Shown one piece after another: positions 4,293 through 29,302 of a DNA stretch of 64,000 nucleotides. Below the pieces are notes generated by a model. That model was not told the DNA's origin. It worked only from the letters and a program-made list of their open reading frames with translations, and searched no databases. The position numbers and the translations under genes are program-made. Source of the stretch: Amoebophrya sp. A120 (taxonomy: Eukaryota > Protista > Dinoflagellata); the NCBI GenBank assembly GCA_905178155.1, contig CAJINV010000011.1:1509216-1573215 (forward strand). The letters run 5' to 3'. Position 1 is the first letter of the stretch. Each line of letters opens with the position of its first letter.

Positions 4293-7200
4293 ATGCCTTT
4301 GTATCTCACCGCCAAGTTCAAGATGATGCCTGCCCTTGTGGCAGCTGCACTTGGGGGCGGCATCACGTCGACCTGTGTAGTAACGGCCTCCAATCCTGTC
4401 CGGCCTGGTCCCGTGGCGAAGGGCAAACCAGCTCCGAAACGACAGAGCAGACGTCCGGGGGAAGAACAGCAGGGGCAACATCAGTTGCACTACACAACCG
4501 GAGCACGCTCCACGGTGCGCGTTGTTGGAAGAAATCGGGCCTCCGGACGAGGTGGACAGCAGCAGCAAGGTCGCGCAAGTAACGGTCAGCTGCGGGCGCA
4601 GGAACAGCAACAGCAAGACCACCTAGACCAGCGTGCAGCCATCCCCATCGACGAGGCATTTGCAGATCGCAACCGCCTCGCCCGGACCCAAGTTTTGAGC
4701 GACCACCTGGACAGAACCCAGCCCCAGAGCATTGCGGACGCGAACCTGCTCCGGGCCTTTGTACGGGTCTTGGAGGACGAACGGCGGACGAACAACGGAG
4801 GTATCCGAGACCAGCAGCAAGGACTGCGTCAGCAATCCTTCAGTGGTCCTGTTCGTCGGACTGCTGGTGCGGGACGTCCAGGCCAGCAAGGTGGACAACA
4901 ACCTGCAGTCTATGAGCAGCCGCGCGACACAATGCTTCTACAATACCCCCAGCAGGAGCAGCCACAACGGGGGGATCAGCTGCCAAGTTTGATTTCTCCC
5001 TCCGGCGGAACAAACTATGCAACCCATTCCCTGCACCAGAACCTGTCTGCTGCAACCGTGACTCGCACCCCGTCGCCGACGGACGAAATTCTGAATCACT
5101 TCAACACGATGGAGGATGAGGAGCACGACAATTGGGGCCGAGACAGCTACAGCTCTGGGTCTGGAGGTTTTTCGTCGCCAGAACAAGTCGAATTCGGCGC
5201 GGAAGAGGATGCTTTCATGCGGTCCTTTGCCTGGAACGAACACGACGACTCGCTGACCATTCCGCCGTTTCAGCATTTTTACATCAACCGAGGCCGCGGC
5301 CACAATGACCATCTGCAGATGAATACCATTTCCTGTCCACCGGGGCTGGAAGCCAGAGCCACTCCCGTGACTACTTCGAGCACCTCCATTTTTCCCCGCA
5401 CCAGCACGCCAGCGATGGTTGTGGCTCCGCAGCCGCAGCGTCAGGGCCTTTTTCTCCCGGACCAAGATGAAGATCCGTTTGCGCTGCAGCTGCCCAACAT
5501 GCAGCAGCCCATGCGTGTGGAGATTTTTGACGGGAAAAAGCAAAGCATGGGTCAACAACGTCCGACAGCCAGTGCCTCCGCGGCGACCTCCTATACGTAC
5601 ACCGCCGGTCAGGAATTCCTGAGCGCTGCCACGGCGACGCCCTCATCTCCAAATGGAGTCACTCCCACTGCAGCGGGAACAGCCGGCGCTCCTGCTATGC
5701 GGGCACCGCCCGGGTTGAGTTTAGATCCCAGCAAGTCGAATGGCAGTGTGAGGATGATGTGGATGTGTGTCCCTGTGCCGTTTGATAACAACAAAAAATC
5801 TACAACTTCCAGCCCCGCCGCGGGCAAAGAAGAAGCAGCTCTTGCCCCAGCGCTGGTCGATGGCCATCTTCTACAGAATCTGCAACTTGTTCAGGATCAT
5901 GCTGGTGGCACCGACATTACGGCTGACTCTACGGACGACGTCGAGCGATTGAAGTCCGAGGTTATCGACTATGGAACTCTCAAACGTTACATTCTCAACT
6001 GTTACATGATTTGTCATGCAAATTTACCACCAAGATCGCCGCGATCAAGCTGCTTCGCATAGCAAATCTGCGAAGGGCTAAACAGCATCGAAATCTGTGC
6101 CAAATCTGTAATGCAAAAGGCGCAATCTTCGCCAGTTCACTTTTGCCGTTCTTGCATGACAAACTTATGGAACAGTTGAGAATGTAACATTTGAGAACGC
6201 CATATCGACATGCTGAGGGATATGGGTGACAACTTTGGCACCCAGCTCTCCGACGCTGAGGCAGTGGCCGCCCTGCAGATTGTCAACGAGCGCCTGGCGA
6301 AGCACTCCGAGGAAGAGATTGCGAAGGCCAGGAATTCCCTCGAAGATGGGCGCGCTGAACAAATGAGGCCGATGAAAGCAATCGGACGAGGAGGAGGACC
6401 AGAAAGCCCCACGACGACTCGTCAACACCGAGCATTAGATCATGCTGAAGCCGGCGGCGCGGCCTTCAGAGCACAAAGAAGTGCGACACAAGTAGAGCCT
6501 TTTTTGTCCTCCTCGCAGACGACTGGGGTCTCGGTCAGCAAAAAAACTGCTCTACCGCTGACGAGGGAAAACCAAAACGTGCAGGCGTCTCAGAGCGCGT
6601 TCCTGGCGAAGACTGCTCCAGCACCGGCGCCCGTCGGCTCCTTGGTGCACAACTTCTACACGCTCGAACCGATGTCTGCACATCAAACCGTAGATCGCGT
6701 GCCGCACCAACAACAGCGTCATGATCATCTGGCGTCGGAACAAGAAGATCATGTTCCACAACCGCCGCAGCCCCACCCGCAGTTGCGCCGCTCGCTGAAC
6801 GTCCAGAGGGGGCAACCGAGAACCCCTGGCCAGCAGCACGATGGTATTATTAACGCGAAGACGAGGAACGAGCACGGCAACATCATTATCGTTTCGAAAG
6901 GCTCCGTCGGGCACCCGCACGCCTGCCAGCAAGCCTGCAAGTACCACGGCAAGAAGAGCGGGTGCAAGGACGGAAAGGACTGCGACCGCTGCCACCTGTG
7001 CTTCTGGACGAGCAAGCTCAGCGGGGGCCGGAACTCGCCCGAAGCGAGGGAGAAGCGAAAGGGGATGAAGGAACAAGGCCTCTTGTCGGGAGGTCGAGGC
7101 GCTGCTTCGGCAGCTGGAACGAACCAAGAACAAGAAGACATTATTACACCACAACCTGGTCATCTCGTCTCTTCATCCTCTCCCGCGAGCAGCCCGAGTC

Positions 7201-7445
7201 AACAACAAGAGAGCATGTTGTACAACAACTCAAGCCCTGCCTCCCCGGCGTCTCCGTGGGTCGGGGTCGCTGATCAGCTGGCGGGAACTCGGGAAGATGG
7301 CGTTTTTCATCCAACAGGCAGTCCTTTCTCGACCAGAGGACAAGAAACTGAATCTGCCGACGTGCTGAACCAGGACATCATTCCATTCGCGACGATGAAG
7401 AAAGGCGCACGCGCAGGCCCGATGCTCCCGGGTCGCGTGTCGTGA
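4293..7445 (+). CDS. Protein with hydrophobic N-terminus and C-terminal CCCH-like Cys/His finger (paralog A); one non-canonical intron
   Basis: ORFs 4143..6062 and 6210..7445 join in frame after removing 240 nt (5970-6209). Motif SKGSVGHPHACQQACKYHGKKSGCKDGKDCDRCHLC. Colinear similarity with the gene at 10783-22921. Confidence 0.75.
5970..6204. mobile_element. TIR introner (family E), TSD TCGAC
   Basis: ~50-bp imperfect TIR tatggaactctcaaacgttacattctcaactg / cagttgagaatgtaacatttgagaacgccata; TCGAC at 5965-5969 and 6205-6209; paralog has a single TCGAC at 20428-20432. Confidence 0.92.
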
Positions 7446-10782: not shown

Positions 10783-13700
10783 ATGTCATCCTTCACAGCC
10801 ATCAACGGAACGATGATGGCAGTGGCTGCCTTTATTTTGTTTTTGGCAGCAGCTGGTGGTGTCTTCACTTGTGATGTTGTGATGGGCTCTAGTCCACCAG
10901 CACCTTTGCCAGTTGGACCAGTTGGACCACGTCGAGCATCCGCTCTTGCGAAAGGCAAGGCACCAGCCCCGGAAGGACAATCATCCAGGGGTCGTGGTTC
11001 TTTCTTGCTGCCGCGACCAATACCGCGACCAATATCCAAGAAAAGAAGAGGACCATCTTCACATGAGTCACTATCTTCACTGGATACAACCATATATTAT
11101 TCGCAGGAATAAGATTGTGACATAAATGAACAAATCATGGGGTGGTCGTAAGGTTCTTTGTGTAGAAGTGGTAGTGCTGCTGTCGTCATTCGAGGATACA
11201 TCATTGTCGTCGTGTAGTAGCTCCTTCTCCAGGTGGACAAGGAATTTTTGTTATGTCCGCGGAGATACAAGTGCCACGACCTGTTGCTATTGTTAAGTAT
11301 TTGATTCTTGTGATCAGGTCGTGGGAGATTGATGTTGCGCGGACCGCGGGCTCTGATCAGGATATACATAGTGGTCGCATGACAGGAGAACAACTTATCT
11401 GGTACTACAACATGTCGTTCGACATCAAATTTCCCATGCCAATGAAGTTGCAGTTGGTAGATCTAGATAGTGCTCCTTGTTTAGTGGTGATTTTTTCATT
11501 TTGTTCCATAGCCACGGCCAGAGCCAGACCAGTTTGAGCACCCGACCCCCGGGGCTGCAGGACCCTCGTGGTCCGCCGTTGTTTCGGAGCCTCCGGATCA
11601 CAGACAGATGACCACCAGCCCCGGAACTGCCGGAGTAGTACAGGACGAGACAGTGCACACACCGATGACTACCAGCACCGGAACTGCCGGAGCGCAGGAC
11701 GAGACAGATGGTACTAGAGGAGGTACTAGCAGAACCGGAGCCCCCCAGACAGCACAGACACAGTCACAGCTCGCCTTCGACGTCGGCGAGTCTTCGCAAG
11801 CGACGCTAGGCGAGCAGCGCAACCAAGCCTTCGCACGCCTGAGCGAGTCTGCGCGAAGGAGAATACAGCGTTATCGCGCTTGGCAAGGCGAAAGAAGAAG
11901 AGGACAGCAAGAACAGCGCGCAGAGCTGCAGCTGAGCCGTCTGGCGCAGGATAGTGGTGCTTCAGCGGCGTTGCGCGCTCGCTCGTCTGCGGGGGTTCAT
12001 CTTCCCGGAGGCACTAGTACCTCCACCGAGGTTCTTGTCCCCGAAGCCCAGACACACGACGAGGACCCCGGGCACAGGCTACAGGAGCGTCAGCGAGCTC
12101 CGCAAGCGGATGAAGGACTTCGAGAAGAATGGACAGAACTAGTACACCACCAGCAAGGCAGCCACTGCGAAAATCTATTGACGGAATTGCTTCATGAAAA
12201 AAGTATGCAAGAACTGGGGGTTGCAGCAGCCGTCCGAACCGTTCAAAGATTTTTTATCAAATGCAAATATGTTGTATGTAGTGAGGTCACCGAACGGTTC
12301 TAACCAGGGAGTTTTTTTGACAGCTACCCTGAAAAACGACCGGCAGTTTTCAAGCGGCCGGAAGCGTTTTTGCACATAAAAAATTTGCACTTATCAAGCG
12401 GCCGGGGCTTTGAAGTCAAACAAGCCCGGTGGAAAACTATCGACTCGCACTTGATAAAACGACGCAGGGGAGCCGGCAAAAGGGGCGCCCTTCTGAGGCG
12501 CCCACCGCCTTGGTTTCTGGCGATTTGGGGCGCCCAAAAAGGGGCGCGCAAAGAACGCGCTCAAAATCAGAACAGCGAAACAGCATGGCACGGCCGCGAT
12601 TTCGGAGCACTTTAGGCGGCCGCGAAAGCGGCCGCCTTTTCGCCGGTTTCAGAGCCTGGGAAGCTTTGCAAAAAGCGCCGGCGTGAAAAATAAAAACGCG
12701 AAAAAGAAAAAGCGCCCCAGACGCGCAAAGCCAATCCGCATGCTATGGGCCCGATCTTTCTTCGCTTTTTGGGCGCCCCCCGTAGCACCCGGATCGGCCC
12801 CATAGCATGGGGGCTGGCTTTCGGAAAGGAATTTCGGGAATTCGCCAAAATTTGTGACGTTTCTCAAGTGACCGCCATACCGTGCGGCATAACGTTACTC
12901 ACGGTGGTATGGCGAGCCCAAAAAAAGCAAAGCCGCGGCCAAGTTGGCGGTCGGCAAAAAAACGCCCACGACCTCACTACCCCCGCCCCGGCGGCTATAT
13001 TTCGTAAGTTGTATGGGTCTGGAAGGACGCAACTTGTGATGCTGATTTTGGATTCTACAGAAATTTGTATTGCGTGAGCAGCAACAGGAGTCCAGTGCAT
13101 GGTATGCGGAGGGGGCGGCATTTCTCATGCGGTATATCTATGCATCAGGAAGTACTCCTAAAATCTGTGATGCGAGGGCATACATCACAGACATCATTGG
13201 TCATGCAAAATGTGCATGACAAGTCTTGCAGCCTTCCAGACCCAGACAGATTTGCTATTGATAAGATTCGAAGAGCAGCAAGAAGTGGCATTCGAAGAAG
13301 CCCTCCGAGCCGTTCAACGGTTCGAAGAGCAGCGCTTTTTGTATGGGGGTGTCAGGATGGAAATCGACAAAGTGGAAATGGTTTGTCGTGCATATGAAAA
13401 CCGATCCCAGTTGGGCCCCCAATTACTAAGCGCCGGCGCATGACAAAAAAATTTAGCTGCAGTGAAATCCAACCTGTGATGCTGTTTCGGGCAAAGCAGG
13501 GTACACCTGTCATGCCCCTTCGCAGCTCTATCTCTCCCCGAATCAGGCTCCAGCTCGGTCTCACTTGGCATCCTTGCAAGACAGGCACTTTGTGCCTCGC
13601 ATTTTATGCATCACATAATTATTTCAACTTTGTTGATTTCGGTCCTGACGCTTCCATATTTTGGCGCCGGATTATAGTAATTATATCTCGGGCTTGCGCG

Positions 13701-16700
13701 ATCGCTCATCCCCCGCGGCTTCCGGCACCAGCGACCGTCTGAAAGCTGCGCAAGAGTTTCTACATGAAGCAGAGACACATCTGCAGCAGGCTGAAGCTGC
13801 CGGAGCACAGCTGGCACACGACCGGCGGAAAGCTGCGCAAGAGTTTCTACATGAAGCAGTGACACATCTGCAGCAGGCTGAAGCTGCCGGAGCACAGCTG
13901 GCACACGACTGGCAGAACGATGCGCAAGAGTTTCTACATGAAGCAGAGACACCTCTGCAGCAGGCTGAAGCTGCCGGAGCACAGCTGGCACACGACTGGC
14001 AGAACGATGCCCAAGAACTTACACACGTAGCAGAGGCATGTCTGCAGCGGGCTCAACATATCACATCAAGAAGAGCACATATCGATTTGGGTCGGGAAGG
14101 AGGTTGTCATCATGCTATTTTGTGAAAGCTACTTGAAGATGAACGCATGAGTGCAAATAACATCAAAATTATGCAGATGAGCCAAAAGCATGAGCAGCGC
14201 AAGTTTTTGAGCGGCTCCTTGTTCTTCGGTATATTATCCACCGCATAAAATACTTTATATACTTCGTTTATGCGAGGAAAATGAACACCGTAAGCACTTC
14301 TAGACTTTTTGGACACGACGACACAAGAGCATGATGTTGCGTCACAACCACGACATCGCACAGCAGTGTTGATGTCAGCTGCTGAGAACAAGCAAGCATC
14401 ACAAATGTTGCATTCTTCCAGGCCAGCCAGTCCGATATTTGCAATCCATACAGTTTCTGCAGCGAAATCTACTCGACCAAGAGCTGTACCAGATAAGAAT
14501 ACCCCCGCGCGAGGAACAGCCCCCGGAGGTGGAGGCTGCGTTGCAAACCCTGGGGTGCTTGCGCGATCGCATCGAGAGTACTGCTGGTCCAGACAGCAGC
14601 GCGGAAATTGAGTTGCTCCAAGGTGCTTAATTACTTTTGAGTATGTAATTGTCGAGATTAAGACAAAATACTTTGGCTGCATTATTATATGTAAAATCCC
14701 CGCAAAAATGGTAGTACGTGTTGTCAACGCGAGACTGTAAAGGTAAAATGTGGAGGGATTCTTCCAGTCCACCTCCGTCTTCGTTCTCTGATGGTGTTTC
14801 CGCGAAGTCGACTGGAGGAAGGAACTGTTCCTGCTCGGAAAATTTTATCTTGTTGACGAGCGTCGCTTTCCGCAACCCGAACAAGAACCCAATTGCGCAT
14901 GCAGCCGTAAAGGACTGCTTGGTCCAGTAAATCGGGTCCTGCATTTCTATCAGTTCCTCGAGCATTACTGGCGGAGGCTGGGTGTGTGCGAATAGTCCTT
15001 CTCGTTTCTTCCGCGTGACCAGCTGAGACAGATGAATTTTGTCTGCCGCCCCCAAGTTGCTGCCACCTGGGATCGCTTCTAAACGCGCGACGACAGACCA
15101 TAGATAGTCATCGGCCGTCGCGTAGAAGCTTCGCCCGACCTGATCGCCGACTAATGCCGTGAAAAACAGCGTTGCGTGCTGTCTGGTGATCGGCCATGGT
15201 TTTTTCAAGAAGGCGCACTCCTTGTGCTGCGAAGCCCGTGTGCAAAACTGGAAATAGCACTTCAGCCGAGACTCCTCTGTTGTTGCAGCAGGCCGTCGTG
15301 TCATTTCCTTATGCGCCGCCTGCATGCGTGGAAGGTCGTCAAGGAGTTTGAATACTTCGTCCTTCTGTTTTGTTCGTCGTTGTTTCTCCGGATCGTGTGC
15401 ATCGCGGTAAAGTTGGAGAATGCGCGGATGAGCTGCTACTTCAGAAAAGAACCCGGGCTTGAATTTGGCTGTTGGATCTTTCTCCGAAGGAATAATTCCT
15501 TGTGCCAGAAGTTCCGCGTCTCCGCAAGCTGCGATTGCTGCGGCAAAAACTTCTAGTTCTGTAACTTCCTGGTGCTGGGACTTGGCTGCTGGTGCCGCGG
15601 GGAGAACTGGCGCGGTACAAATCGGGTCGGAGCTTGATCTTTTTCTGGATGGCTGTGCGCGTGACTGCGGGACGATTCCGCACTGCCACTGTAAACTTGC
15701 AGTATCGTTTTCGGCCGATGCTATCGAGAGTACTGCTGGTCCAGACAGCATCGCGGAAATTGAGTTGCTCCAAGGTGTTTTGCGGGTCTTCATGGAGCAA
15801 GAAGACCGCGCGCAGCGTCTTCGACGTTTTTCAGGGCTCGCCGAAGGAGCTTCTGCCGCCGCAGTTGTAGAGGATCAGCAACAAGGACAGCAATTTTTGC
15901 AATCGTCCGTCGGGCATGATACAACTGATACTGGTACGGCGGTATTTTTGCACCAACAACGACAAGAACCTCGTCAGGAAGTGTGGACACAGTCCTCCTT
16001 GTTTTCGTTGCCAGAGGCGGAAGTCGAAGTCGATGATCTTGAAGAGCAGGACGAGCCTTGTTCTTACAGGAAGTGCTTTACCTTTGCCAGTGATGAAGAT
16101 AATGAAGACGGTGAATTAGTGCTATGAGAGTGCACAAGTCGTCCCTCTCCCCCTCATCAGTTGTATGGCACGAACAGCTGCATCTGCAAAAACATCACAG
16201 GTGTCTCCAACACAAGTGGAGTCTGTTTTTTATCATGACAAGTATTACTTCACGTCGCGCCGATTGTAGTTCGTTGTGGTTGTCAAGTTTCCGGTTCGGT
16301 GAATTAATTTGTTTGCCCGGCCGCAAACAGTGCCACAAGGCGGCAACTGGATTTGGGTTGACTTAGCGTGAGAAATCATGATGCATTCAGGGACATGATC
16401 GGGGCGCGTTCCGTTTAGTGCCTTGTTGTGCAGCAGCACCCCATGGACCCGCCCGCACGACCCCTGGGCAGCACAGGCTTTACTCTAGCGCAGCCGCTGC
16501 CGCAGTCTGTTACGCATGACAAATGGAGGGGACGAGGAGGGGACGAGTGCTGCTCTACTTTCATATGAGGATGAAGACTGTCTGACCAGCATCCCCATTC
16601 CGGCCTTTGCCCGTCACCAGGTCGAAGAACAGCACCAGCCGTGCGATCAGACGAGGTCGTCCTCGTCCTGTCCACCCGAAGCTCCAACTCTGCTGCATGC

Positions 16701-19700
16701 CAAAACATCAACTCCAGGTCGTTGCAGTAGGTGTTCTCATCTATCTTCCCGAAATGTTTATTCGAGCACCCGGCGGGAAGCTTTCAGGGTCTTCTGCCAG
16801 TGCGTCCACCATCACCGCGGAAGCGGTGCCAGCGGTGAGTGATTGGGGCGGTGGGTGCGAGAATGAGGCTCGTTTGAAGAGTTCCAAGGGGTCTCGAGGG
16901 GCCTGCGTACCAAGCCCGCACGAGCCGGCTTGCGGCCTTTTTTGGGTCGCGAGTACGCAGGGCCCGGGGCCGCGAAAAAGATGCCCGCCTGCGCCTGTTG
17001 GGCGTGCTGTGAGTGCCCGTGGGTCGCGTCGATCTGCGCAGTGGGGGGGCCACTTTAGTCTATGTCTAGGCTCGTCGGGGTGTTGGCGTGCCTGTTGGTT
17101 CCTCTAGAGCGACGCCTGGGCCGCGTGCAAAAACCCACCAGGGGAGGCAACAGCACTCCTACGCAGGCGCGACCATAAAAACTGCAGCGCCTGCGTTGGC
17201 GCAAAAAAAAAAGGGCAAATCCCGACGGTATGCTGCGAATTTCTTTAGGGATAAGAACAGCGCTGAAGATCACCTATTTCATCTCTATACAGCGGCGAGG
17301 CTACATGGAGCGATGGTGGTGCTGGTTCCGGTTCGGGAGGCCGCGATCTTGGCCTAGCTCCCCGCGGACCCGCTTGTTGGTTTTTTGCTTTCCGCCCTCG
17401 TGGAGCTGTAGCTCGGCCTCGTCGCCAAGCAGTTCGCCCGCCTTTGCCACTGCTTTCGGCCCGGCAAGCTTTACTAGATTTATACACAGGCGCTCCACTG
17501 CTTGCTTCTGTGTCATTCGCGGAGGCCGTTTTTTAGTTTTCTCCCGCTCGAACATGTTCGCGAACCCGTAGCTGCTCTCGTTTTCATCTTCTTCTCTGCC
17601 TGCTGGAACACCGGCGCCAAGACCTCTTTCGCCGCGGAGCGAGTCGTAATTCCCAAAGAGGTCTACCCTGCAATCCTTTTTGAACTGCTCGGCGCGGGCC
17701 CCGAATCCACTGGCGATGGCTTTAAGCTGAAAGGCGCCCGCGTCAGTGCCCGCATTTGCTTCTCGCGCTGTTGTCTTTTCCTTCTGCGTGTTTACTTTCG
17801 GTGGGATCGCAGCCGCAAAAGGCGCGCCCACTCTGGCTTCGACGCTAGAGCTACTGCTGCTAGTGCTGCCGGTCGCGGAGCCCGCTTCCTCAGGTGCTGG
17901 CCTTGCTCGTGATTCCAAGTTCCGTGTCTCGCGACTATTTGCATTCCGAAACGACATCGCAATGGAAGATGACGAAGAGGAGGATGACGGCTGGGCCCGA
18001 TGTCTTTCTCCGATTTCATCGGGTGCTGGCACTGGGAGTGGGCGGGGCGATCTCATCTCCTTCCATAATTCACCACCTTTATTTGCTGAAATTCGAGCTG
18101 CGAACCTGCCTGTTGAACCACGTGGGGCCCGTTTCGACCGGGTGGTGCTGCACACTGCTGCAGCTCACCAGGCTGCTTGTTTTGATGCGCCAAATCCTCT
18201 CCGCACGAAGCTACCTCTCGAGTCGCCGCGTCCGCGTTATGCATCACAAAATGCTGCACTAGAAGTGGAATCCAGAATGCAATTTTTTTCAGAAGCAACA
18301 AGCTCGAGCTGTTTCCTTATAAATATATTTGTCATGCAAAATCGAGCAGCCGTGCGATCAGACGAGTTCGTCCTCGTCCTGTCCACCCGAAGATCTGCTG
18401 GAGGCCCACGCAAGGACGATGCCCTGCACCACGCCGGCGAGGATCCTGACTCCTCCGCTAAGTATTATCCTGTGTAAGAACGTCCCCACCCCATAGTCAA
18501 GATGGGGAATCTGGATCTGCTACACAAATCCATTAGTTTTGGCTGTCGAGCATGACAGGTTCCGGCTCGTAGTGTAATCCTGTTTAGCTAGTAGTGCAAC
18601 CGCATGACAAATTGACTATCTCATCCTGGTTCTAGCATGACAAACTCCCAGACAGCATTAGAAAATGACGCTCATGGGGCTGCGCATGAGAGACATTTTA
18701 GGCTTGCGGATTTGCACGACAGCCATGGGGTGGGGACGTTTTTACATATGATATTCGCCGCAGTGCCAAGAGGACGTTCTGTCTCGTGAGGCTGAGGTTG
18801 ATGTGGGCATGACCATGACGGACAATATTCATGTTGATAAAGTGCTGGGCCCGCTTATTCTTGCCGAGCTGGCCAACTACAGGCAGCGCAGGATCATGCG
18901 GCAGGTGGTCCAGGACCAAGGGTTTGGTCATGGTGCCGGCCAGACCCAGACGAACTACATCAAGGGACGCCAGCTGATGGAAAATAAAACGGAGCCGGGC
19001 ACCAGTGGGGATGATGTTAACGTCGCTTGTTCCACGACGACCACCACGGCGACTGCATACAGCCCCCCCTCCTCTCCCTCGCCTCCTTACATCGTGGCGG
19101 GCCAACAGTTACTATGAATTGCAAAAGTATCGCACTCGTATAAATGCATTACAAATTTCCTCAGCATGAAAAATAAAATTTGTAGTGCTGATTTACCCTA
19201 AAAAAAAATGTATTCATTGCATGATTGCAATACGAGTACGATACTTTTGCACACGATAGTTACTCGATGCCGCGATGTGGTCTCCTAGCGCCAGCCGTGC
19301 TGGTTCAGCCAGTGTATAACCTGCTCAGATGTTGCAACCTCAAGCGTTACAATAGAAATGGAAATTTGTGATGCAAAAAGTGAATAATTGAATGTCTAGT
19401 CTGCTGTCACGAGATTGCGCATGAGAAGTTTTTACAAAGCTCCAAACCCCATGAGAATCTGGCAAAATTTGTATTGCGAAAAGCGCAAAGCTCTGCATGT
19501 TCCACCTCATGCTCTCTATGCAAGACAAATCCCAGAATCTATATGTAACGTTTGAGCAGATTGTAACATCTGAGCAAGCCATACAGTGGTTTTCGTGCTT
19601 CTAGTGTGCGAGCTGTAGTACCCGCCTCCCGGTCAACATTTCTAGGTGTAGAGGAGGACATATGAAAGCCTCAGAATGGAAATTCTCAAAGTGGAAATAA

Positions 19701-22700
19701 TTTGTGATGCATGAAATGCGACACCAAAAAGACTGTATTGCAGAGGACGCAATGGAGGCCGACTATTGTGCTTCTACGGGTTCAGAATTGGGCTGCTGAT
19801 TAGCACGAGAGAAGGGCACACCTTTGCCCTAACTAGCATGACAGACATGTTTTGAGTGCCCGGGAAATTTGTCATGCGCGGCCGATTAGAAATGGCACTT
19901 CAACTGGAATTGTTTTTTTGCATTACAAATCATTTCCACGTTGAGGATTTCCATTCTGAGGCTGTCATAGGACACAGCTTTTGCTGCTGCCACCAGTTCT
20001 TCGAGCGGCAAAAGTGGCAGAATGATGTGGACGTGCGCGCGCGTGCCCCTGAATGACCTCCAAAAGAAGCCGGAGGCCGAGCCCAGCTCGACGTCTCCTG
20101 GCACTACCAAAGGGGCAACAACAACTGCTTGCGGGAGAAGAAAAGAAGATGGCTATAATTTTACGGAGGGGGTTGTTCTTCTTGCGCCGCAGCCGGGTCT
20201 ACCTTGTTTCTCCTTCAGTACCTCACCGCCAACGCTGGTGGACGTGGAGGGGTTCGAAACCCCAGACGCGGATGCTGATTGTGATTTCCCTGCCCGGACC
20301 TCAAGTACGAACAGCATGATGACAGTCCAACAAGATAATGTGCACAATGTACTCATCACGGACACGGAACAAATGAACGAAGACAACATCGTCCCTGCCG
20401 ACGTCGAGCAACTGATGTCCGAGATTATCGACATGCTGAAGCACATGAGCGATTTCGAAATGGAGCACCGGCTTTCCGACGCCGAAGCACAGGTTGCCTT
20501 GCAGATCATCGACGAACGTTTGGCGTTGAGTACGGATAGGGATATCGTGCGAGCCACTGCGCTGTTGCGCAACAAGTGCAAGAAAAGCAAGCGGAACTTC
20601 TTGTGCGAGGACGATGCAAGAACTTGTAGTGCATCAACATCAGAGGCAGTGAGGCTGGAGGACGCCACGCGTCAGTGGCAGCAGAAGCTGCGCGGCCTCA
20701 TTATGTTTATGACCACGAAGACCGATATGGAAGCGTCCGGATTGATGAAATCGACAAAGTTGAAATAATTTCTCATGCATAAATTGCAAGGCATGAAGTT
20801 GCGCCTCTCTTGCAGGGATGGCAAGTGAGGCCGACTGTCAGCCTGTAGTTTGGGGTCTGCGAAATCAGAGCTGCTAAAGTAGCATGACAAAACACGCCCT
20901 CTGTCCCTAAACAGCATGACAAACTGGATTTAGGCGGTGCCGAAAGTATTCGTCATGCACCGCTTGGAAATTGAGCTTCCAACAAGTATCCATTTTATGC
21001 ATCACAAGTTACTTATTTCAGCTTTGTCGATTTCAATTCTGACACTCCCATAACCGAACGCAGTTCTTACCGAGTTCTTCAAGGAGGAGTCGAAAAATGC
21101 GCCAGAAGTATCCCGAGGAAAAACGTCCTCACCCCAGAGTTGTCATGCAAATCCGCATGCCAAAAAATAAAAATTTCTCATGCGGAGCCCCATGAGAACC
21201 ATTTTCTAGTCGTGTTTTGGAATTTGAATTTGTTATGCTAGAATCAGCATGATGTGCTAGATCTATGATGCTTCGGAACTAGCTAAACAGGACTAAACTA
21301 CGAGGGCAAACTTGTCATGCGAAACAGCCAAAGCTGGCTGATTTGTGTAGCAGATTTCCCATTTTGACTCTGGGGTGGGGACATTTTTACTCAGGATAAG
21401 AACTGCGCCAACTTCTGCGACCGCCAGCACAGCGACAGGCTCAGGCGGCGCTGCGTCTTCTTCCTCGACGTCGCAGATGGCTCAGGTACAGAGCACCTCC
21501 AAACCGCCCTTGAAGATGAGCCCGGTATTAAGCAGCATTTCGTCTCAGACTGTCGCGGCGAGGCCCTCCTGCAGCTCCCCAGCAACGGCAGCACAACCAA
21601 AGATTGGCCGGCCCACGAGGAACTTCCTGATCCCGCGGCAGTACAACTACACCAAAAAACTCCCCCCGGCGCAAGGAGAAGTTGTGTTTGCTGCACGGAA
21701 GGCGCATGCGCAAGCCGCGACGTTCTTACAACGATCACCACCAGGAGGGAACAAGCTGCAGAACTCGAGAAGCTACGCGTCTGCCATCCGTGGCCCCCAC
21801 TCGGGGGCCAGCAGCGCCACGAGTAGTACTACTGAACGACTTGCAACAGTGCACGAAAACGTGCCGCAAGATGATCATTCGCCGGAACAGCGGCCCCAAA
21901 CCCCGCAGCTGGAGCCGCGCTCCTCGTGTGATGTTTTCCAAAACTACTGTACTTCGTCGGCCGCCCACGAGGACCATGACGGTAGAAGTGGTGCGACGTC
22001 GTCGTCGTCGCGGCAGGAGGAGCCCGGGGGCTACACCGATGTCGTCTCTAAAGGCTCGCTGGGTCACCCGCATACCTGCTTATGCATTGCAAAACAACAA
22101 GTGTCGCACACGTCGCACTGGTATAAGTAAACAAACTGCTTGGGTGCAATTTATTTCACATCAATGCGAAGGAGAGGCGCTTATTGTATATTTCATTTAT
22201 AAATATGCTGATTAGAAGTGCAGCTGATCATAAAACCAAAGGCGGTGATGGTTCCGCAGTACTATCGCAGTTTTTTACTATATACAACTAGTACGACTAC
22301 GAGTGCGACACGACCACCTTTGAAGTGGATACTGGCAAGCTCCGTGTAAATACAACTGGACAAAAAAGGGCTGCAAGGACGGAAAAAACTGTAACCGCTG
22401 CCATTTGTGCTCCTGGAAAGACTTCTACGGAAAATTTGAAGGCAAGCACCGGCCTCGGTCCCGGTTCCGGTTCTCGGACCCCGATGCCTGTGGTTCCGGT
22501 TCCGCCTCCGCCGAACAAGCTTCGTCCCCTATTACAATGAAAAATGCCCCCACCCCACACTTGGCAGCATTTGTGTTGCAAATCTTTCCAACAGAAACAT
22601 TTCCCGTCTTGCATATCTCAGCATCACAAACTTTCCATGCTGAATAGGTCGAATTTGTGTTGCGAAGGGGCCCAACAGCAGCCGGATCTGTTACGCACAA

Positions 22701-22921
22701 GGCACCTTGCGCACCTAGATTCTGCATCAGAAAGGCTCGCAATCCTTGCATGCAAGACAAAAAGCTTTCATTTGGAAAATTTTGCATGCCAAACTTCTGC
22801 AAATTCCGGGATGGGGGCACTTTTCATTGTAATATCCTCTACTCCCGGGACCACGAGTGGTTCCGGCTCAGCGGATATCAAAAGGAAAAATCCCTTATCA
22901 AAATCAAAACGAAATTTCTGA
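10783..22921 (+). CDS. Paralog B of the CCCH-like finger gene, split by ~15 introns/inserts
   Basis: Exon pieces match paralog A in order (GGVFTCDVVMGS..AKGKAPAP; DRIESTAGPDSIAEIELL; SCPPEDLLEA; AGQQLL; RMMWTCARVP; DVEQLMSEIIDML..LSDAEAQVALQIIDERLA; SKGSLGHPHTCQAPCKY..CKDGKNCNRCHLC). Removing the inserts gives a continuous frame to TGA 22919-22921; a few junctions are approximate. Confidence 0.72.
11093..11510. mobile_element. Probable decayed introner (first intron of paralog B)
   Basis: TAT...CATA ends, internal gcatgac motif; element+5 nt = 423 nt restores frame. TIR/TSD poorly conserved; a GA-AG intron 11107-11511 is an alternative. Confidence 0.35.
12255..13263. mobile_element. TIR introner (family A) expanded by a nested element, TSD AGATT
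   Basis: Ends tatcaaatgcaaatatg / cagatttgctattgata; body resembles 28938, 57572, 58525; AGATT at 12247-12251 and 13264-13268; removing 1017 nt gives VQRF-EEQQ in frame. Confidence 0.85.
12279..12979. mobile_element. Non-autonomous hAT-like element nested in the introner
   Basis: TIR tagtgaggtc / gacctcacta; 8-bp repeat gttgtatg at 12271-12278 and 13008-13015 (right copy displaced by 28 bp); internal inverted ggggcgcccaaaaag / ctttttgggcgcccc. Confidence 0.6.
13342..13658. mobile_element. TIR introner (family B), TSD TTTTG
   Basis: TIR tatgggggtgtcaggatggaaatcgacaaagt / actttgttgatttcggtcctgacgcttccata; 322-nt removal joins QRFL-APDY. Confidence 0.9.
13741..14050 (+). repeat. Coding tandem repeat, 87-bp (29-aa) unit, ~3.5 copies
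   Basis: AQEFLHEAETHLQQAEAAGAQLAHD repeated in ORF 13661..14125. Confidence 0.9.
14059..14450. mobile_element. Degenerate TIR introner (family A-like)
   Basis: Right end gcatcacaaatgttgcattcttccag..tatttgcaatccata matches family A; left tatcac..gcacatatcgatttgggtcgggaagg; element+5 nt (397) restores frame (AQ-FLQR); TSD decayed. Confidence 0.6.
14623..15774 (+). other. 1152-nt GT-AG intron created by a 55-bp exon duplication around foreign DNA
   Basis: Direct repeat 14571-14625 / 15723-15777 (1 mismatch) contains AG|GT; offset 1152 is a multiple of 3; flanks encode the same peptide IESTAGPDS(S/I)AEIELLQG. Confidence 0.8.
14627..15722 (-). pseudogene. Truncated tyrosine recombinase (DIRS/Crypton-like) fragment
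   Basis: ORF 14627..15793: helical SAM-like region (PWPITRQHATLFF..DYLWSV), box-I-like IGFLFGLRKATL, ends at LKSN with the stop formed at the duplication junction; no HxxR/Tyr region. Motif recognition only. Confidence 0.65.
16123..16565. mobile_element. Degenerate TIR introner (family G)
   Basis: Left end tatgagagtgcacaagtcgtccctctccccctcat matches the 41159/61120 TIRs; right gcatgacaaatggagggg..ctttcata; flanking atgaagac repeat (16102/16571, offset 469) restores EDNED-CLTSIPIP. Confidence 0.7.
16656..18366 (+). other. 1711-nt GT-AG intron bounded by a 46-bp exon duplication, filled with captured fragments
   Basis: Direct repeat 16636-16681 / 18347-18392; its single mismatch gives AG|GT in the left copy; splicing yields QTSSSSSCPPEDLLEAHAR, similar to SCPPGLEARAT in paralog A. 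Confidence 0.78.
17346..18237 (-). pseudogene. Captured host-like gene fragment inside the 1.7-kb intron
   Basis: ORF 17301..18155 (284 aa) with Ser-run low-complexity style like local genes; antisense to all real genes; abuts half an introner at 18238-18346. Confidence 0.45.
18466..18753. mobile_element. TIR introner (family C), no intact TSD
   Basis: TIR tatcctgtgtaagaacgtccccacccca / tggggtggggacgtttttacatatgata; 288 bp, removal of the element alone keeps frame; body is the reverse complement of 21109-21398. Confidence 0.8.
19113..19258. mobile_element. TIR introner (family D), TSD GTTAC
   Basis: TIR tatgaattgcaaaagtatcgcactcgtat / atacgagtacgatacttttgcacacgata; near copy of 36390-36538; 151-nt removal restores frame. 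Confidence 0.92.
19315..19583. mobile_element. TIR introner (family E), TSD CAGTG
   Basis: TIR tataacctgctcagatgttgcaa / ttgtaacatctgagcaagccata; 274-nt removal restores frame. Confidence 0.9.
19661..19969. mobile_element. TIR introner (family B-related), TSD GGACA
   Basis: TIR tatgaaagcctcagaatggaaattctcaaagtggaaat / atttccacgttgaggatttccattctgaggctgtcata; 314-nt removal joins to ORF 20022. Confidence 0.92.
20726..21052. mobile_element. TIR introner (family B), TSD ACCGA
   Basis: TIR tatggaagcgtccggattgatgaaatcgacaaagttgaaata / tatttcagctttgtcgatttcaattctgacactcccata; inverted relative to the 13342 copy. Confidence 0.92.
21109..21398. mobile_element. TIR introner (family C), TSD AGAAG/AGAAC
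   Basis: TIR tatcccgaggaaaaacgtcctcaccccagag / ctctggggtggggacatttttactcaggata; 295-nt removal joins CAR-TAPT. Confidence 0.9.
22081..22331. mobile_element. TIR introner (family H) interrupting the Cys/His finger, TSD CTGCT/CTGGC
   Basis: Ends tatgcattgcaaa..gtgtcgcac / gtgcgacac..tttgaagtggata; 256-nt removal restores HPHTCQAPCKY. Confidence 0.85.
22530..22834. mobile_element. TIR introner (family F), TSD TCCCC/TCCTC
   Basis: TIR tattacaatgaaaaatgcccccaccc / gggatgggggcacttttcattgtaata; same ends as 48042-48362. Confidence 0.9.
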
Positions 22922-25361
22922 TGCTGGATTTGGATACACGAGGAGGACTAAAAGTCAAAAGAGCAGCAAATAGGCAGAGAAACATCAAACGATGGTCGGA
23001 ACCATTTCGAACAGGACAGAAATTCGATTGCGTGGCCCGTGCGATTATTCGAACAAGGCGACTGCTACGGAACAGTGTCGAGTGGGAACGTTGGGAAATA
23101 AAAAGCTAATAGTACTCAGAAGATGCTAGAAGATTTGTTATTCTGACAAAGAAGTACTAGAGGTAGAGCCCTTTTCTTTGTCTCAACGTCGTACCAGTTC
23201 AGTGGTCACACACGACCTGGAAGAGAGCAAGCACACCGAATCGGTGCAGCTCCATCAAGAGGCATTTCGTTTTGCATGTGCCTGCTTCTACGCAGCTACT
23301 TACCAGTTCCGGCTGCTTGAGAAGTGCAAGTGTATGAACAGCAATAAAAGCAATGTCGTAAATTCCTAACAACATAAGTTACTTTTTTCCTGCAGACATT
23401 TTTTTTACCCAAGGCCCTCCCCCCTTCTTATTTTGCCTGCAGGTTTCTGATTGTTTGCAGCGACCAAGAAGGCTAGTTGATACATAATACATAGAGGAGT
23501 CAAACCAAGTCTGGAGGTACTACGGGTGACATGAACATGGTTGTCTGTCACTGTGCTTCGAAAGATGTTGTTAATTGACTCGCATCTTCAATACGAGTGC
23601 ATAGAGATCATGCGCCGTGGTCAACACCGCGGCTCTAGATCTTACGATTAATACCGGCCTTAGATCTTACGATAGAAATGATACAAGACCGCGGCCCTAC
23701 TAGAGGACGCTCCTCCTTACGCCTACGCACAGGGAGGACTGCCTCATCACTGCTGATTGGTGCGTGGTGCTTGCAGTGCCTATAACTAATACTACCGTGT
23801 GAAATGAGTGATTCTTTAAATGCTTTAATGATTTTCGATAGGAAGAGTACACAGAAGATTCACGTATACATGTCGTAGCTTTCGCTTTTTCACGCTACTA
23901 GCTTGCTTTACGTGCAAAATTTTCAAAATCCAAAAACCTTCCCTGGTTCTTCTTTCAGGCCTCGGATGAAGAACTTGAACTTTACAGAAAAAACAGCAGA
24001 AAACAGGAATGCCATCGGATATCGGTTGCGATTTCGCAAAACGTGGTGAACGCTCCAAACAAGTGGCGCCATTTTTTCCATTTGTATATTTATTAATATT
24101 TCTTGAAGATCAGCTCTGACACATCCTTGGTCGCTATAATTCGCGCCCCCGGCAACGTGAATTTTTGGTTGCCCTGTAGTGACATAATTTACTTATACAA
24201 CTTCATATGATGTAGATGTATAATTGATTTTTTTTTAGCTGATCATGAAGAGTCTCGTGGGTAGGTCAATGTCGTCTGTATTTCCGGCTGTAGTTCCTCT
24301 CCGTAACTAGAGCACAGTCGGGCGTGTCGTGGATAGTGTTGATGTACGATTGTGCTCAGCATAACCGTCAGAACATATGAAAAGCTGTGAAGAAGAACCA
24401 TCTCAGCCTCATTTCTACTTATCATAATATACAACTACTGACGATGAACACGAATGTTTCGTCCTCGAGAGACTGTTCCTAAGTGCGGTGCAGGACCACC
24501 GTGTTGTTGAAATAGATGACGTTGATCATTCTTTTCCTTGCGCTTGCGCAAAGATTTAGGAAAAGAACTTCTTTTCCATTGTATAGGAAGAGTGCTTCTT
24601 TTAAAGAAGCACTCCGCTTTATAAAGAAACTCTTTTTCCATTGTATTTTGATTATTCCGTTAGCCAATGCCAAACTTTATGCTGATGGAATAGCCCAGCC
24701 TCGCAAGTTCAACACCTTGCTCGACGTTGTTGACGCCGAGTATGTGCGGTGTGAGGCTCCAAAAGTTTTCCTTTTTCTTAACCGCAAATCGCTATGGTAC
24801 GATTACGAAGAGGGCCACGGCCACCAATTCAGAGGTATCATCTGCAGGTGGAGTGATACGAAAACGATAAACCGTGGCCATCACCAAAGGCATGAATATC
24901 ATAAATTAAAAGTACAAGTGGACACAAAGACAATATCAATATCTAAGAAACTCATCCAAAAACTATTTTCATAAAAGACTTAGAGTGGTAAAAATCCTGC
25001 GTTTGTAAAGACTTGTATACAGTTTAGTTTTCAATGTATACACAAAGACAAATTCAAAAACCACGTTGACGCAACTCGCACACGACCGTAGTTGCGCCAC
25101 GAAACACAAAGAAAAGTCGACATCATTTGTGTCGAGATAAAGTCGACCGCAACAGCGCGCTGTTTAGTTCGTGTTTTTTCTTTGTGCTTTTGAGTTTGTG
25201 GAAGTTTTTCTAGTTTTCTTCCTCGTTATTGAAATGGTGGTGACATTATAACATGATGAACGTCTTCTGATCAGGTTTTTCAGTTACTAGCACGACTCCA
25301 TCTTCTTTGTGTTGGTGGAAAAATCCTCCAGATGACTTGAGGCGAGGCTCGAACTGGAAGC

Positions 25362-28300
25362 ATGATGCCCCGTGTTTGTACAACAATAAACATAATGTTC
25401 ACAAGGCTCGTCGTGTTCTGTTTCGTCCGTCATGCAGCGCTGCTGTTTCAGCTCGTTGTCGTTCCCGCGCTACGGCCCCCGACCTCCGCGGCGAGCCAAC
25501 AAGCCACAACTAGCCCATCGTTTAGCGGTCGGGCTGGCGAAGATGCTGATGAACATCAGAGCGTCTTTCTGCAGTCGGACGAAGAGCTGCGCGGGGGTCG
25601 TGGCACAAACGTTGATCTTCCTGCCGGACAACAAGCATCTCAGCAGCATGGCGAGCTGCACAAGAGTCATTTCTCTACCACTAGCACTAGTACTTCTGCA
25701 GTGTTGACAGGGGCTGCGGCTACAACTCATCATCTGGAAGAAGATCATGGTGCACGACACAGTAGCTTTCAACATCAAACCCGGCTCACGAAGAACTCGA
25801 ACTCCACCATCGAAGCCGCAACCTCCGTCAAGGATCGCCTCAAAGCCGGCTGCCACCCCCGGAACCTCGCGCCGGTGCTTTGCGGCAGTCTCTTAGCGTT
25901 GCAAGCGGCGAGCAACGGTCGGCTGGCCGAGGAGTCCGGGAACCCCCTGTTCGCGTCGCTCTGCAGCTCCGTCGTCGGTGGAACCGTGATGCTGGCCTTG
26001 GGCGCGATGTCGGCGGGATCCGATTGTGTGGTGAAGAAGTTGTTGTCGGTGTCGGGGAGGAACGCAGAACAAGAGGAAAGTAGTGCTCAGTCGGAAGAAA
26101 AGAACTCTCCAGAACCAGATCAAGATCCGGAACAACAAGGTGTGTCAAACGACGGCAATGTTTCGCTCACAGCTCCACCCAGAAGTGAGGACACCTGTGC
26201 AGCAGCGCGGTCGAAAAATCACCGCGGGAACGAGCACAGAGAGGAAGATCCGCTCGCAGACGCGCGGGGCCTTGGCTTTGGGCAACAAGTGGTCGGCGTG
26301 TCGGAAGGTAACAGGCCACGGTGGAACTCGCACAACGTCGGAGTGGCGTCGTCATCCGTGCCTCCTGTGGGATCATCTTGTTTGAAGGCCGCCGTGGTGC
26401 CTTCAGGTTTAGCTGAACCTGAACAAGTCGACGTTGCGCGTAGTGCACGACCTACCACCAGCACGGACAGCTCCCCCTCCTCCTGTCCCGGGCCACGGGA
26501 CGTTTTAAACGCCTTAGCGAGCGTGGAGGAGGAGCAAATGCAGGATGCGCTGCTGCTGAGTATCAACGCCGCCTGCTTGGATTTTATGGGCCAGGACGAG
26601 GTGGTTGACGAGCATTCCAGGACGGTGCGGCAACAGATTGCGTACGAGCCTATCGAGGAAGGTGCAGCCGGGTTTGAAGACCAGTACAACTCCAATCCAG
26701 AATCGGATCTAAGCACCAGCGGCGAGGCTACATGGAGCGATAGTGGTGCTGGTTCCGGTTCGGCAGGCCGCGGCGGGCACTTGTTCCGGACTTCTTCTGC
26801 TTCGGGGGCAACAAGAATATTAACCGCGGACAAAGTCGCGAGATGGAATGTCGCGTGGGCCATGGCGAGGGGGGAAGGCGACGAAGAGGCAGAGGGAGGT
26901 AAACAATCCAACAGCGGTCCTCGTCGTGTACTACGATCTGCAGTCGACGCAAACGCGATGGACACAGACGATCAAGAAGAACAAAGTGGATCGGAAGCGA
27001 ATGACCAAGAAGATGATCGAGGGAAATCGAAATTGGTCGAAATTGAAGAGAACTACGTAGGGAAGCTGCCTGGGCTGCCTGGACCACGACCGTCGGAATT
27101 GCCAGCCGCTTGTTATTCTGGCGCAACACAAGTTCTTGACGAAACCTCCACAAGAAGGCTGCCTGATCCGGAACAGCAGCGATTACACTCTATCTTCGGA
27201 GACGATGATGATCACGTGTTGATGGGGCAGCACCACCACCACGACCGGAGCGGAGTCTCACCCCCGTCCACTTCACCAAACAGAGCAAGCCGCGCCACGG
27301 GCTGTACAACTAGCAGTTCCAGTAGCAGCGCACGGCCGCCTGCTCGGATGTTCTCCACAGCCTCCCCACGAATAACTGACTGGATGCGGCAAAAGGCGCG
27401 TGGAGGTCTGAACAAGGAAGCAGACGGCGAAGGCCGTTTTAGAGCTACGACTTCCTATGACAAGAAATCCAATTTTTCATTTTCTCTCCACCCACGCCGG
27501 AAGCCTGCAATCGACGACCCTTTTGGCGACGATGCTGGAGGTGGGGACACGTCCGCGTCAGATTTTGAAGGAACAACGGAAATGATCCTCAATTTGGACG
27601 ACGATAGTCCTAGCAGAAGTGACTTCAACAACGTTGCGCCCGTGGTGCTCGGGAAACGCACTTCACCTAGACTGTCACACGAAAGCAACACGCATGTTCT
27701 GAAGGGTGTTGCCCTTCGGAAAGCCGATGGCGGGACAGATGGTAAGACGCAACAAATAATTGGCCAGCACAAGAAGCGGCATGGTGGGCAGCGTGATGTA
27801 GTTGCAGATGGCTTTGCCCTGGCGTCGGTGCACCAGCAACTGCAACAACAGGGCGATTTTGCTTCTACGAGCAATAAAGAACAAGAAACAACCACCACCC
27901 CGAGCAAAAGCGCGAACCGCAGACGACCGTTTAATTTTTTCCCGCCAACATCTTCTTCCTCCGCTCGTCAGGCAGCGCAGCAGTTTCTCGATTTGTTCCG
28001 AGCCAAGAGCACGAAGCAGCTGCAAGCGGCAAGAAAGCTTTTCTACGAGCTGAAACACACGAAAAACAAGAGGAAAAAGCTCTGGTTCCTCCGCCGGTTC
28101 CTGTCCCGCCTGGTGCTCGGCGGCCCGGTCGCCGCCAGTGCGGTGGCGCTCGCCTGCATGGCCGTACCGAAAACGGGCGTTTTGAGCTACACCATGGCCT
28201 GGATTGTTGGGCAGATGTTCGTGTCCGCAGCCGTGGACCACCGGGGGAGCATGGGCATCAAGCGGAAAATGACGGGAAAAAAGTGCCTCGCCTCCCTCCT

Positions 28301-29302
28301 CGCCCCCGTCGGCCTGTTAGTGGCCGCCGCGGGGCAAACGGGAACTCGCTCCCCAGCAGGAGAAACAGATCAGAGTCAGTTGGAAGCACTGGTGAAGGTT
28401 TTAATCCCCTCGAACGACAAAGCGCTCTACCTTCTCGCGGCGATGTTGAGTGGCGGCTTGATGCCGGTCGCTCGCGTCTCTCTCGTGCAGTTGAACGCGC
28501 TCTTACCGAACCGCATGCTAACAACCGGGGGGATTGCGTATGTGTCCGGTGCGTTGGCGCAATTTCTATTCCTTGTGATACTGTCCAAACCATTGGGTTT
28601 GACGACAGCGAGCGAACTCTTCGATGGTTTGTTCGACGGGAATGACGATCCATCATCCGACTTTGGTTTTGCTAGCACGGCGGGAACTACTAGCGCAACA
28701 AATTTCACGACTTCTACTATTGCACCAACAGCAGCTGCACAGCTTGCCGTAGAAGCTTCCTCGTTCAGTAGCAGCAAAAGCCTAGAAGCACTTCTCGTCC
28801 GCCTGCCGCTGATTACCTGGTGTGGCGGCTTCGTGGGCGCGGTGCAGTTTTTTTCTATTCTACTCTTCCAGAAGAAGATCGGCGCTTTGCGGTACTTTCT
28901 CCTCGTGTTGCTCGGACAACTGTCCACCAGTCTGCCTTATAGATTGCAAAAATGTGTGGGTCTGAAAGAATACAAACTTGTGATGCGCATTTCAGAACAC
29001 AGAAAAATCTCTCATGCATAGGTAGCAAAAGCTGCCCACATTCTGTCCCCAAAGCGGGGGATTTGTCATGCGGATTCGGCATTGCGGAAGCTTCTCGAAA
29101 CCTGTGATGCTAGAGCTTCCATGCCAGACCTTCTGCGTCATGCAAAAATAGCACGACTCTTCTAGACACAGACATTTTTGCATTTGATATGCCTCTGGAC
29201 CACTACGGACTGCTGGGCTTCGAAAGACGCGAGGTCACAGCGTATCCGGTGGCGGGGGTGGTGTTGGTGTTGCTGAGTGTGCTGTTCAACCAAGCGCTGT
29301 GA
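25362..29302 (+). CDS. DMT-superfamily (YdcZ-like) membrane transporter with very long low-complexity insertions
   Basis: GSLLALQAASNGRLAE..NPLFASLCSSVVG; GQMFVSAAVDH; WCGGFVGA; after intron removal GQLSTSLPLDHYGLLGFERR..VAGVVLVLLSV, the typical YdcZ-type repeat ending. Confidence 0.8.
28938..29189. mobile_element. TIR introner (family A), TSD TGCCT
   Basis: TIR tatagattgcaaaaatgtgtgggtct / agacacagacatttttgcatttgata; 257-nt removal restores the conserved DHYG motif. Confidence 0.93.

What the first reader, a model, noticed from the sequence alone, without database searches (positions are those of the whole stretch)
13342..21398. Same introner family sits in both orientations within one gene
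Seen: family B copies 13342-13658 and 20726-21052 have reverse-complementary interiors (ctcggtctcacttggcatccttgcaagacaggcac vs gcgcctctcttgcagggatggcaagtgaggccgac); both have perfect TSDs and restore frame. Family C copies 18466 and 21109 are likewise inverted. Inference: excision is orientation-independent, which a branch point plus polypyrimidine tract cannot easily explain; it implies symmetric signals in the TIRs or recognition of a long RNA stem.
Basis: partly seen in the sequence, partly recalled or inferred. Interest (0 to 1): 0.8.

Follow-up and report, generated by a model that had tools for sequence, protein, structure and literature searches.

The report
Reversible hairpin introns with fixed cuts
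In the parasitic dinoflagellate Amoebophrya A120, copies of one small transposon family are missing from assembled transcripts whichever way round they lie, likely because both of their mirror-image ends carry the same short signal that sets the cut at a fixed distance without the usual GT-AG rule.

Summary
The inversion is real and both orientations of family B are removed from RNA. 'One gene' is not established.

These are the published Amoebophrya A120 introner elements: TAT…ATA inverted ends, 5-bp target duplication, no GT-AG. B1 (13342-13658) aligns with B2 and with a third copy (19661-19969) only as reverse complement; so do C1 and C2. RNA-type contigs skip B1, B2, B3 and C2. C1 has no duplication and no listed joint.

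Both-orientation introners are already in print (Polarella, Aureococcus), where they are spliceosomal, so orientation alone does not exclude a spliceosome.

The new point is a fixed register. All 12 element skips read here fit one cut, exon|N-TAT…ATA-NNNN|exon. Two skips allow only this register, a shared register by chance has p about 0.04, and the published A120 splice-site table (9 of 9 top pairs NT-NN) agrees. Some skipped copies have no predicted terminal pairing, so the end motifs likely fix the cut while the stem brings the ends together. The layout parallels the Euglena code (N3-CDG…CHG-N5-6). The machinery is untested.

The parts
13342..13658 (+). Family B element B1 (TAT…ATA, 5-bp duplication); inferred intron 13341-13662; reverse orientation to B2 and B3
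   Evidence: skipped in X2, joint 13336>13659; fold z -7.6
20726..21052 (+). Family B element B2; inferred intron 20725-21056
   Evidence: joint 20720>21053 in X1; absent from model P0001; fold z -7.8
19661..19969 (+).
   Evidence: joint 19654>19969 in X1
18466..18753 (+). Family C element C1: intact inverted ends, no target duplication, removal not shown; the common cut would end the upstream frame at 18786
   Evidence: no joint listed
21109..21398 (+). Family C element C2, reverse of C1; duplication 4 of 5; inferred intron 21108-21402
   Evidence: joint 21103>21399 in X1; excludes register 0/5
14058..14454 (+). Decayed TAT…ATA intron whose joint allows only the 1/4 register
   Evidence: joint 14057>14455 in X1 and X2 with no ambiguity
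22080..22335 (+). Decayed TAT…ATA intron whose joint allows only the 1/4 register
   Evidence: joint 22079>22336 in X2 with no ambiguity
12254..13267 (+). Family A element with a nested insert, skipped whole (1014 nt)
   Evidence: joint 12252>13267 in X2
16122..16569 (+). Family G-like element, weakly reverse to the copy at 61120-61345; skipped
   Evidence: joint 16120>16569 in X1; core score 40 reversed, shuffle maximum 25
22529..22838 (+). Family E element; its joint excludes cuts more than 1 nt before the left repeat
   Evidence: joint 22528>22839 in X1 and X2
19113..19583 (+). Two further elements (D 19113-19258, F 19315-19583) with perfect duplications; removal predicted, no joint listed
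   Evidence: paralog P0002 aligns across the D junction
11512..18786 (+). Upstream reading frame holding B1 (646 aa if four elements and two GT-AG-like inserts are removed); no relatives found
   Evidence: searches 75 and 76 blank
18758..22918 (+). Downstream reading frame (743 aa after seven removals) holding B3, B2 and C2; member of a small A120 paralog family

Best explanation
These are Amoebophrya A120 transposon-derived introns that are missing from RNA-type contigs in either orientation, and they are likely cut by a rule read from their mirror-image ends: one base before the 5' UAU and four bases after the 3' AUA. Shown: inverted copies of family B are skipped; no skip can be placed at GT..AG; all 12 skips fit this register. 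Inferred: because the ends are inverted repeats, each strand presents UAU…AUA, so the interior and its direction do not matter. The cut removes the element plus exactly one duplication length (1 + 4 = 5 nt), so any insertion restores the old coding sequence whatever the target bases are. The stem likely holds the ends together while the two triplets set the exact positions. Untested: the machinery. I favour a structure-guided route of the Euglena type over a re-tuned U2 spliceosome only slightly, about 55 to 45.
For: 9 of 15 joints listed are exact element skips (9 of the 12 elements in 11500-24000). Their allowed registers intersect only at 1/4, and two allow nothing else. Three more skips read from contig pieces are compatible but do not discriminate. 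Simulated chance of a shared register is 0.037. Farhat Table S4 lists 9 predominant A120 non-canonical pairs, all NT-NN, as a cut one base before TAT predicts. First intron base, last two intron bases and first exon base are unbiased in 49 elements. X3 behaves as DNA: even depth of about 42 on single-copy parts, cover of intergenic bins, and one 4543-nt contig running through the element at 52402 that X1 and X2 skip. X1, X2 and X8 are blank over 44168-46835. Family B in confidently stranded hosts is 5 against 7 orientations (one borderline hit dropped). Opposite copies lie in one frame in L006 (family B) and L003 (family D).
Against: The register rests on 6 informative joints, each seen in one contig per run at depth 3-6; B1 is seen in one contig only. 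B1, B2 and B3 have perfect duplications, so their own register is not readable. C1 does not fit: no duplication, no joint, and the common cut breaks the long frame. Four of 49 elements lack an exact TAT or ATA at the ends I called; their removal was not seen in RNA. TAT…ATA could be invariant because the transposase needs it, not the splicing machinery. Table S4 pairs may be biased by aligners towards GT or AG. Contigs give no strand; strand comes from frames, codon scores and the public models.
Confidence: 0.68

Rival explanations
1. A modified U2 spliceosome reads the ends as linear signals: N-UAU(G) as a donor with a relaxed first base, and an adenosine of the terminal AUA as a branch point with the acceptor set 5-7 bases on. 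The hairpin is incidental or only juxtaposes the ends. This agrees with the register and differs only in machinery.
For: Donor positions +2 to +4 are UAU in 22 of 22 window elements and +5 is G in 12 of 22, like the GUAUGU donor (recalled). A120 keeps almost all spliceosomal proteins and U2, U4, U5 and U6. Three skipped copies lack predicted terminal pairing. Spliceosomal both-orientation introners exist.
Against: No conserved first or last intron bases. A branch-type motif is absent from the last 50 nt of B3, C1 and both G copies. In most copies both ends are predicted buried in a very stable stem. U1 snRNA was not found in A120.
Confidence: 0.3
2. The skips are reverse-transcriptase template switches across hairpins flanked by short direct repeats, and are not splicing.
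For: Direct repeats plus structure are the known signature of such artefacts (PMC4176328 passages). All RNA evidence here is presumably cDNA-derived, and the library type of X1 and X2 is not on record.
Against: Two joints have no repeat at the junction and weak stems, yet share the register. All 12 elements in the region carry stops in all three frames, so retention would kill the genes. The paralog P0002 aligns across the junctions.
Confidence: 0.04
3. The elements are removed from DNA (empty alleles or stage-specific elimination), and the contigs report that DNA.
For: X1 and X2 are only guessed to be RNA. The DNA control was laid on 41500-61480, not on B1 or B2. 93 joint rows were hidden.
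Against: X3 contigs run into or through the elements at single-copy depth, and X1 and X2 lack intergenic cover. Exon pieces have 0 differences from the window while several old elements are skipped together.
Confidence: 0.04

Closest known systems
Amoebophrya A120 introner elements (Farhat et al. 2021, PMC7789003)
   Same: Same organism (P0001 is 100% identical and labelled A120). Inverted repeats starting with TAT, 3-5 nt direct repeats, hairpin, non-canonical borders, repeated families.
   Different: In the sections, legends and supplement text I read, orientation of copies is not discussed, and the splice site relative to the hairpin is called variable or unknown. Here it resolves to one register. 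Figures were not visible and may already hint at it.
Euglena non-conventional introns, code N3-CDG…CH'G-N5-6|R (PMC12501133)
   Same: A self-complementary triplet pair at the base of a terminal stem, fixed unequal spacers with the 3' one longer, no GT-AG, suspected MITE origin.
   Different: Triplets are TAT/ATA, spacers 1 and 4, no purine rule at the first exon base (27 of 49). Unrelated lineage. The Euglena rule was tested by knock-ins; this one is not.
Both-orientation spliceosomal introners of Polarella glacialis and Aureococcus (bioRxiv 10.1101/2020.10.14.339549)
   Same: DNA-transposon introns that create introns in either orientation.
   Different: They carry or recruit G(T/C/A) and AG sites from the element or the duplication, which restricts targets. 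The A120 elements need no such bases.
Fritillaria borealis MITE-derived non-canonical introns (review PMC11282704)
   Same: Inverted ends, target duplication, non-GT-AG borders; reported to be handled by an adapted spliceosome.
   Different: Preferred AG-AC or AG-AT borders; no preferred dinucleotides at the inferred borders here apart from T at +2.

Membership tests
Amoebophrya A120 introner elements | Terminal inverted repeats beginning TAT | tested here: met
   B1, B2, B3, C1, C2
Amoebophrya A120 introner elements | 3-5 nt direct repeat at the borders, for B1, B2, B3 and C2 | tested here: met
   5 of 5 for the B copies, 4 of 5 for C2
Amoebophrya A120 introner elements | Direct repeat and RNA-supported removal for C1 | tested here: inconclusive
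   0 of 5 duplication; no joint listed at low cover
Amoebophrya A120 introner elements | Non-GT-AG intron supported by RNA | tested here: met
   skips in X1 and X2; no GT..AG placement on either strand for 12 of 12
Amoebophrya A120 introner elements | Repeated family | tested here: met
   3 B copies in the window; B copies in 13 of 14 loci
Spliceosomal both-orientation introners (Polarella, Aureococcus) | G(T/C/A) donor and AG acceptor from element or duplication | tested here: not met
   no GT..AG option in 12; B3 could be read GA..AG, and this is the only G(T/C/A)..AG option among the 12
Spliceosomal both-orientation introners (Polarella, Aureococcus) | Lariat formation and snRNP dependence | not testable with these tools
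   needs lariat sequencing or inhibition
Euglena non-conventional introns | CDG…CHG triplets with 3 and 5-6 nt spacers | tested here: not met
   TAT…ATA with 1 and 4 nt
Euglena non-conventional introns | Purine as first base of the next exon | tested here: not met
   27 of 49
Euglena non-conventional introns | Terminal stem joining the intron ends | tested here: met
   predicted only: z -7.6 and -7.8 for B1 and B2; absent or shifted in 3 skipped copies
Euglena non-conventional introns | Pairing required for removal; excised as full-length circle | not testable with these tools
   needs reporters and circular-RNA assay
MITE (non-autonomous inverted-repeat transposon) | Short, inverted ends, fixed-length duplication, no coding capacity | tested here: met
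   5-bp duplications, stops in all + frames; empty site in the paralog of the 5970 element
MITE (non-autonomous inverted-repeat transposon) | Cognate autonomous transposase | not tested
   no whole genome held

The most novel reading that the evidence does not exclude
Amoebophrya A120 has a second, non-spliceosomal mRNA splicing system. It recognises a paired UAU/AUA stem base and cuts 1 and 4 bases away, making its transposons removable at any site and in either direction. This would be an independent origin of a Euglena-like splicing code in an alveolate, tuned so that the cut equals the 5-bp target duplication.
Probability: 0.33. Interest if true: 0.85.

Novelty: new variant of a known kind. 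Interest (0 to 1): 0.55.

Why it matters
How Amoebophrya removes tens of thousands of non-canonical introns, apparently without U1 snRNA, is an open question in the paper that described them. A fixed register turns it into a direct test: it predicts every junction, allows the A120 introns to be re-annotated, and says which six bases and which spacers to mutate. It also explains why the elements spread so far: a cut that needs nothing from the target site or the orientation, and removes exactly one duplication, makes nearly every insertion harmless to the protein.

Tried and rejected
No whole genome is held, so no genome-wide orientation count was possible. The 2026 raw-read runs X5 and X6 cover 2 of 30 bins, only as other copies of families B and C; they say nothing on splicing efficiency. 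No listed run is on record as an RNA holder. Six joints lie inside elements with 25-37 letters on the short side and were set aside as other family copies. In one search the DNA run filled the joint table (93 rows hidden), so my written predictions for 57572 and 61120 could not be read; two RNA-type contigs leave the window at 57565, the leftmost placement of the predicted skip, but their other pieces are not listed. Uncovered interiors of the two long inserts are no proof that they are introns. Pfam names nothing in three exons of the downstream frame. L013 (no element) and L008 (near-copy of L003) were dropped before counting; L002, L010, L011 and L012 were left out as uncertain in strand; one borderline hit (48042, score 40) was dropped from family B. 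Huff et al. 2016 is not held. Earlier findings of this scan: none.
Full report
Observation. The window holds many 150-450-bp elements with inverted ends TAT…ATA and 5-bp target duplications. B1 (13342-13658) aligns with B2 (20726-21052) end to end only as reverse complement (71%, E 6e-33), and so does C1 (18466-18753) with C2 (21109-21398) (74%, E 2e-46). With the terminal repeats cut away, the cores score 123 and 143 reversed against 23 and 22 forward; the best of 100 shuffles is 32 and 31. A third B copy (19661-19969) lies like B2. B1, B2 and B3 have perfect duplications, C2 matches 4 of 5, and C1 0 of 5.

Identity. An exon between B3 and B2 is 100% identical to a partial protein labelled Amoebophrya sp. 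A120, and two paralogs carry the same label. Farhat et al. 2021 (PMC7789003; I read the abstract, section 10, the last third of Results, section 16, term passages, and part 3 plus passages of the supplement, but no figures) describe these introner elements: inverted repeats starting TAT, 3-5 nt direct repeats, predicted hairpins, over 60% non-canonical introns, U1 snRNA not found. The elements are therefore a known kind.

Removal in RNA. Laying four runs on 11500-24000 gave 15 joints, of which 9 skip a whole element plus 5 nt. These include B1 (X2), and B2, B3 and C2 (X1); C1, D and F have no listed joint. One X1 contig joins 20202-20720 to 21399-21990 across a 51-nt exon with no differing letter. 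The second lay shows what the runs are. X3 covers all 30 bins, at about 42 on single-copy parts, and its contigs run into or through the elements. X1, X2 and X8 are blank over 44168-46835. X1 and X2 skip 48037-48362 and, as inferred from a 222-nt gap in their records, two more elements. All 12 elements of the region carry stops in all three frames. Template switching, a known source of false introns at hairpins with direct repeats (PMC4176328 passages), is unlikely because two joints have no repeat at the junction.

One gene? Not shown. B3, B2 and C2 share a 743-aa frame and the public partial model. B1 lies upstream, beyond two inserts of 1152 and 1711 nt flanked by 58- and 49-nt exon duplications, and beyond C1. 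With the common cut at C1 there are two frames (646 and 744 aa); a single 1381-aa frame needs a 288- or 294-nt cut. Both are on the + strand by frame and codon score, so B1 and B2 are opposite relative to transcription either way. In a related assembly found with a family B end pattern (14 loci), family B is 5 against 7 orientations in confidently stranded hosts, counting the three window copies. Opposite copies lie in one frame in L006 (B) and L003 (D). That evidence is frame restoration only, with no RNA.

The register. For each of the 9 skips I listed every placement that gives the same product. The only one common to all is 1 base before the 5' TAT and 4 bases after the 3' ATA, and the joints at 14058-14454 and 22080-22335 allow nothing else. 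The three later skips are compatible but uninformative. If registers were independent, a common one would arise in 3.7% of simulations. Independent support: the 9 predominant A120 non-canonical pairs in Farhat Table S4 all have T second, though aligner bias may add to this. No skip can be placed at GT..AG on either strand. In 49 elements the first intron base, last two bases and first exon base are unbiased, TAT is present in 46 and ATA in 48, and pairing is 46-49 of 49 at stem positions 1-3, 25-32 at positions 4-7, and 40-48 at positions 8-14. B1 and B2 fold into long end-to-end stems (z -7.6 and -7.8). Three skipped copies have near-zero predicted terminal pairing or a shifted stem, one of them with the exact register.

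Mechanism. Shown: skipping in both orientations for family B, no canonical borders, one compatible register. Inferred: the inverted ends present the same UAU…AUA on either strand; the triplets set the cut; the stem brings them together; 1 + 4 bases equal one duplication, so the old exon is restored. Untested: the catalyst. A structure-guided route is suggested by the Euglena code N3-CDG…CH'G-N5-6|R, where motifs and pairing were both needed in knock-ins (PMC12501133, section 11 and passages), and by a review's statement that euglenid introns leave as full-length circles (PMC11282704, section 6). A re-tuned spliceosome remains nearly as likely: N-UAU(G) resembles the GUAUGU donor (recalled), and an A lies 5 and 7 bases before the acceptor.

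Novelty. Either-orientation introners are in print for Polarella and Aureococcus (bioRxiv 10.1101/2020.10.14.339549, passages; the journal version and Huff 2016 were not read). One survey allowed opposite-orientation copies and a later one required the same orientation (PMC9860276 and PMC12130899 passages). I found no statement of orientation independence or of a fixed register for Amoebophrya in searches, or in passages of PMC12005148, PMC11453091, PMC12787238, PMC12621601 and PMC13326754. Farhat's legends call the splice position variable or unknown and place the repeats 1-5 nt from the sites. Their Fig. 3 and Figs. S19-S25, which I could not see, may already show part of this, and subscription papers are not searched.

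Verdict. A known element with a confirmed inversion, an unproven 'one gene', and a probably unreported fixed splicing register that makes an open question testable. Interest 0.55.

Noticed in passing
window 14571-15780 and 16636-18395: Two inserts of 1152 and 1711 nt are flanked by 58- and 49-nt duplications of exon sequence that contain AG|GT, so they read as GT-AG introns (14623-15774, 16656-18366) of the tandem-duplication type. Their interiors carry minus-strand frames (415 and 287 aa) with no Pfam hit above cut-off. No joint was seen.
   Followed up: partly
window 17290-17345 and 26717-26772: A 56-nt stretch of the second insert recurs at 96% inside a downstream gene; 16678-17288 also matches another locus in run X1, as if the insert were a patchwork of captured pieces.
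   Followed up: no
window 12255-13263; L001 505-1608: Elements with nested inserts about 1 kb long; the window copy is still skipped whole.
   Followed up: partly
window 19661-19774, run X5: About 510 raw reads of another family B locus run from an adapter-like end (identification recalled) at 19774 out through the terminal repeat into foreign flank. It may be an RNA starting inside an unspliced element, about 115 bases before its end, or one amplified fragment.
   Followed up: no
window 37379-37538 and 58527-58794; L005 878; L011 1104; L014 1120: Elements with one altered terminal triplet but matching duplications: natural tests of the code if their junctions are read.
   Followed up: no
window 4140-7442: Paralog of the downstream gene (P0004) with an element at 5970-6204 where the downstream gene has a single copy of the 5-bp target: a clean empty site.
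   Followed up: yes
window 29580-31300 and 45980-46370: Large arrays of short tandem and nested inverted repeats unlike the introners.
   Followed up: no
window 55906-57564 and 25341-28931: AFG1-like ATPase and DMT/YdcZ-type transporter genes on the + strand, both followed by family A elements.
   Followed up: no
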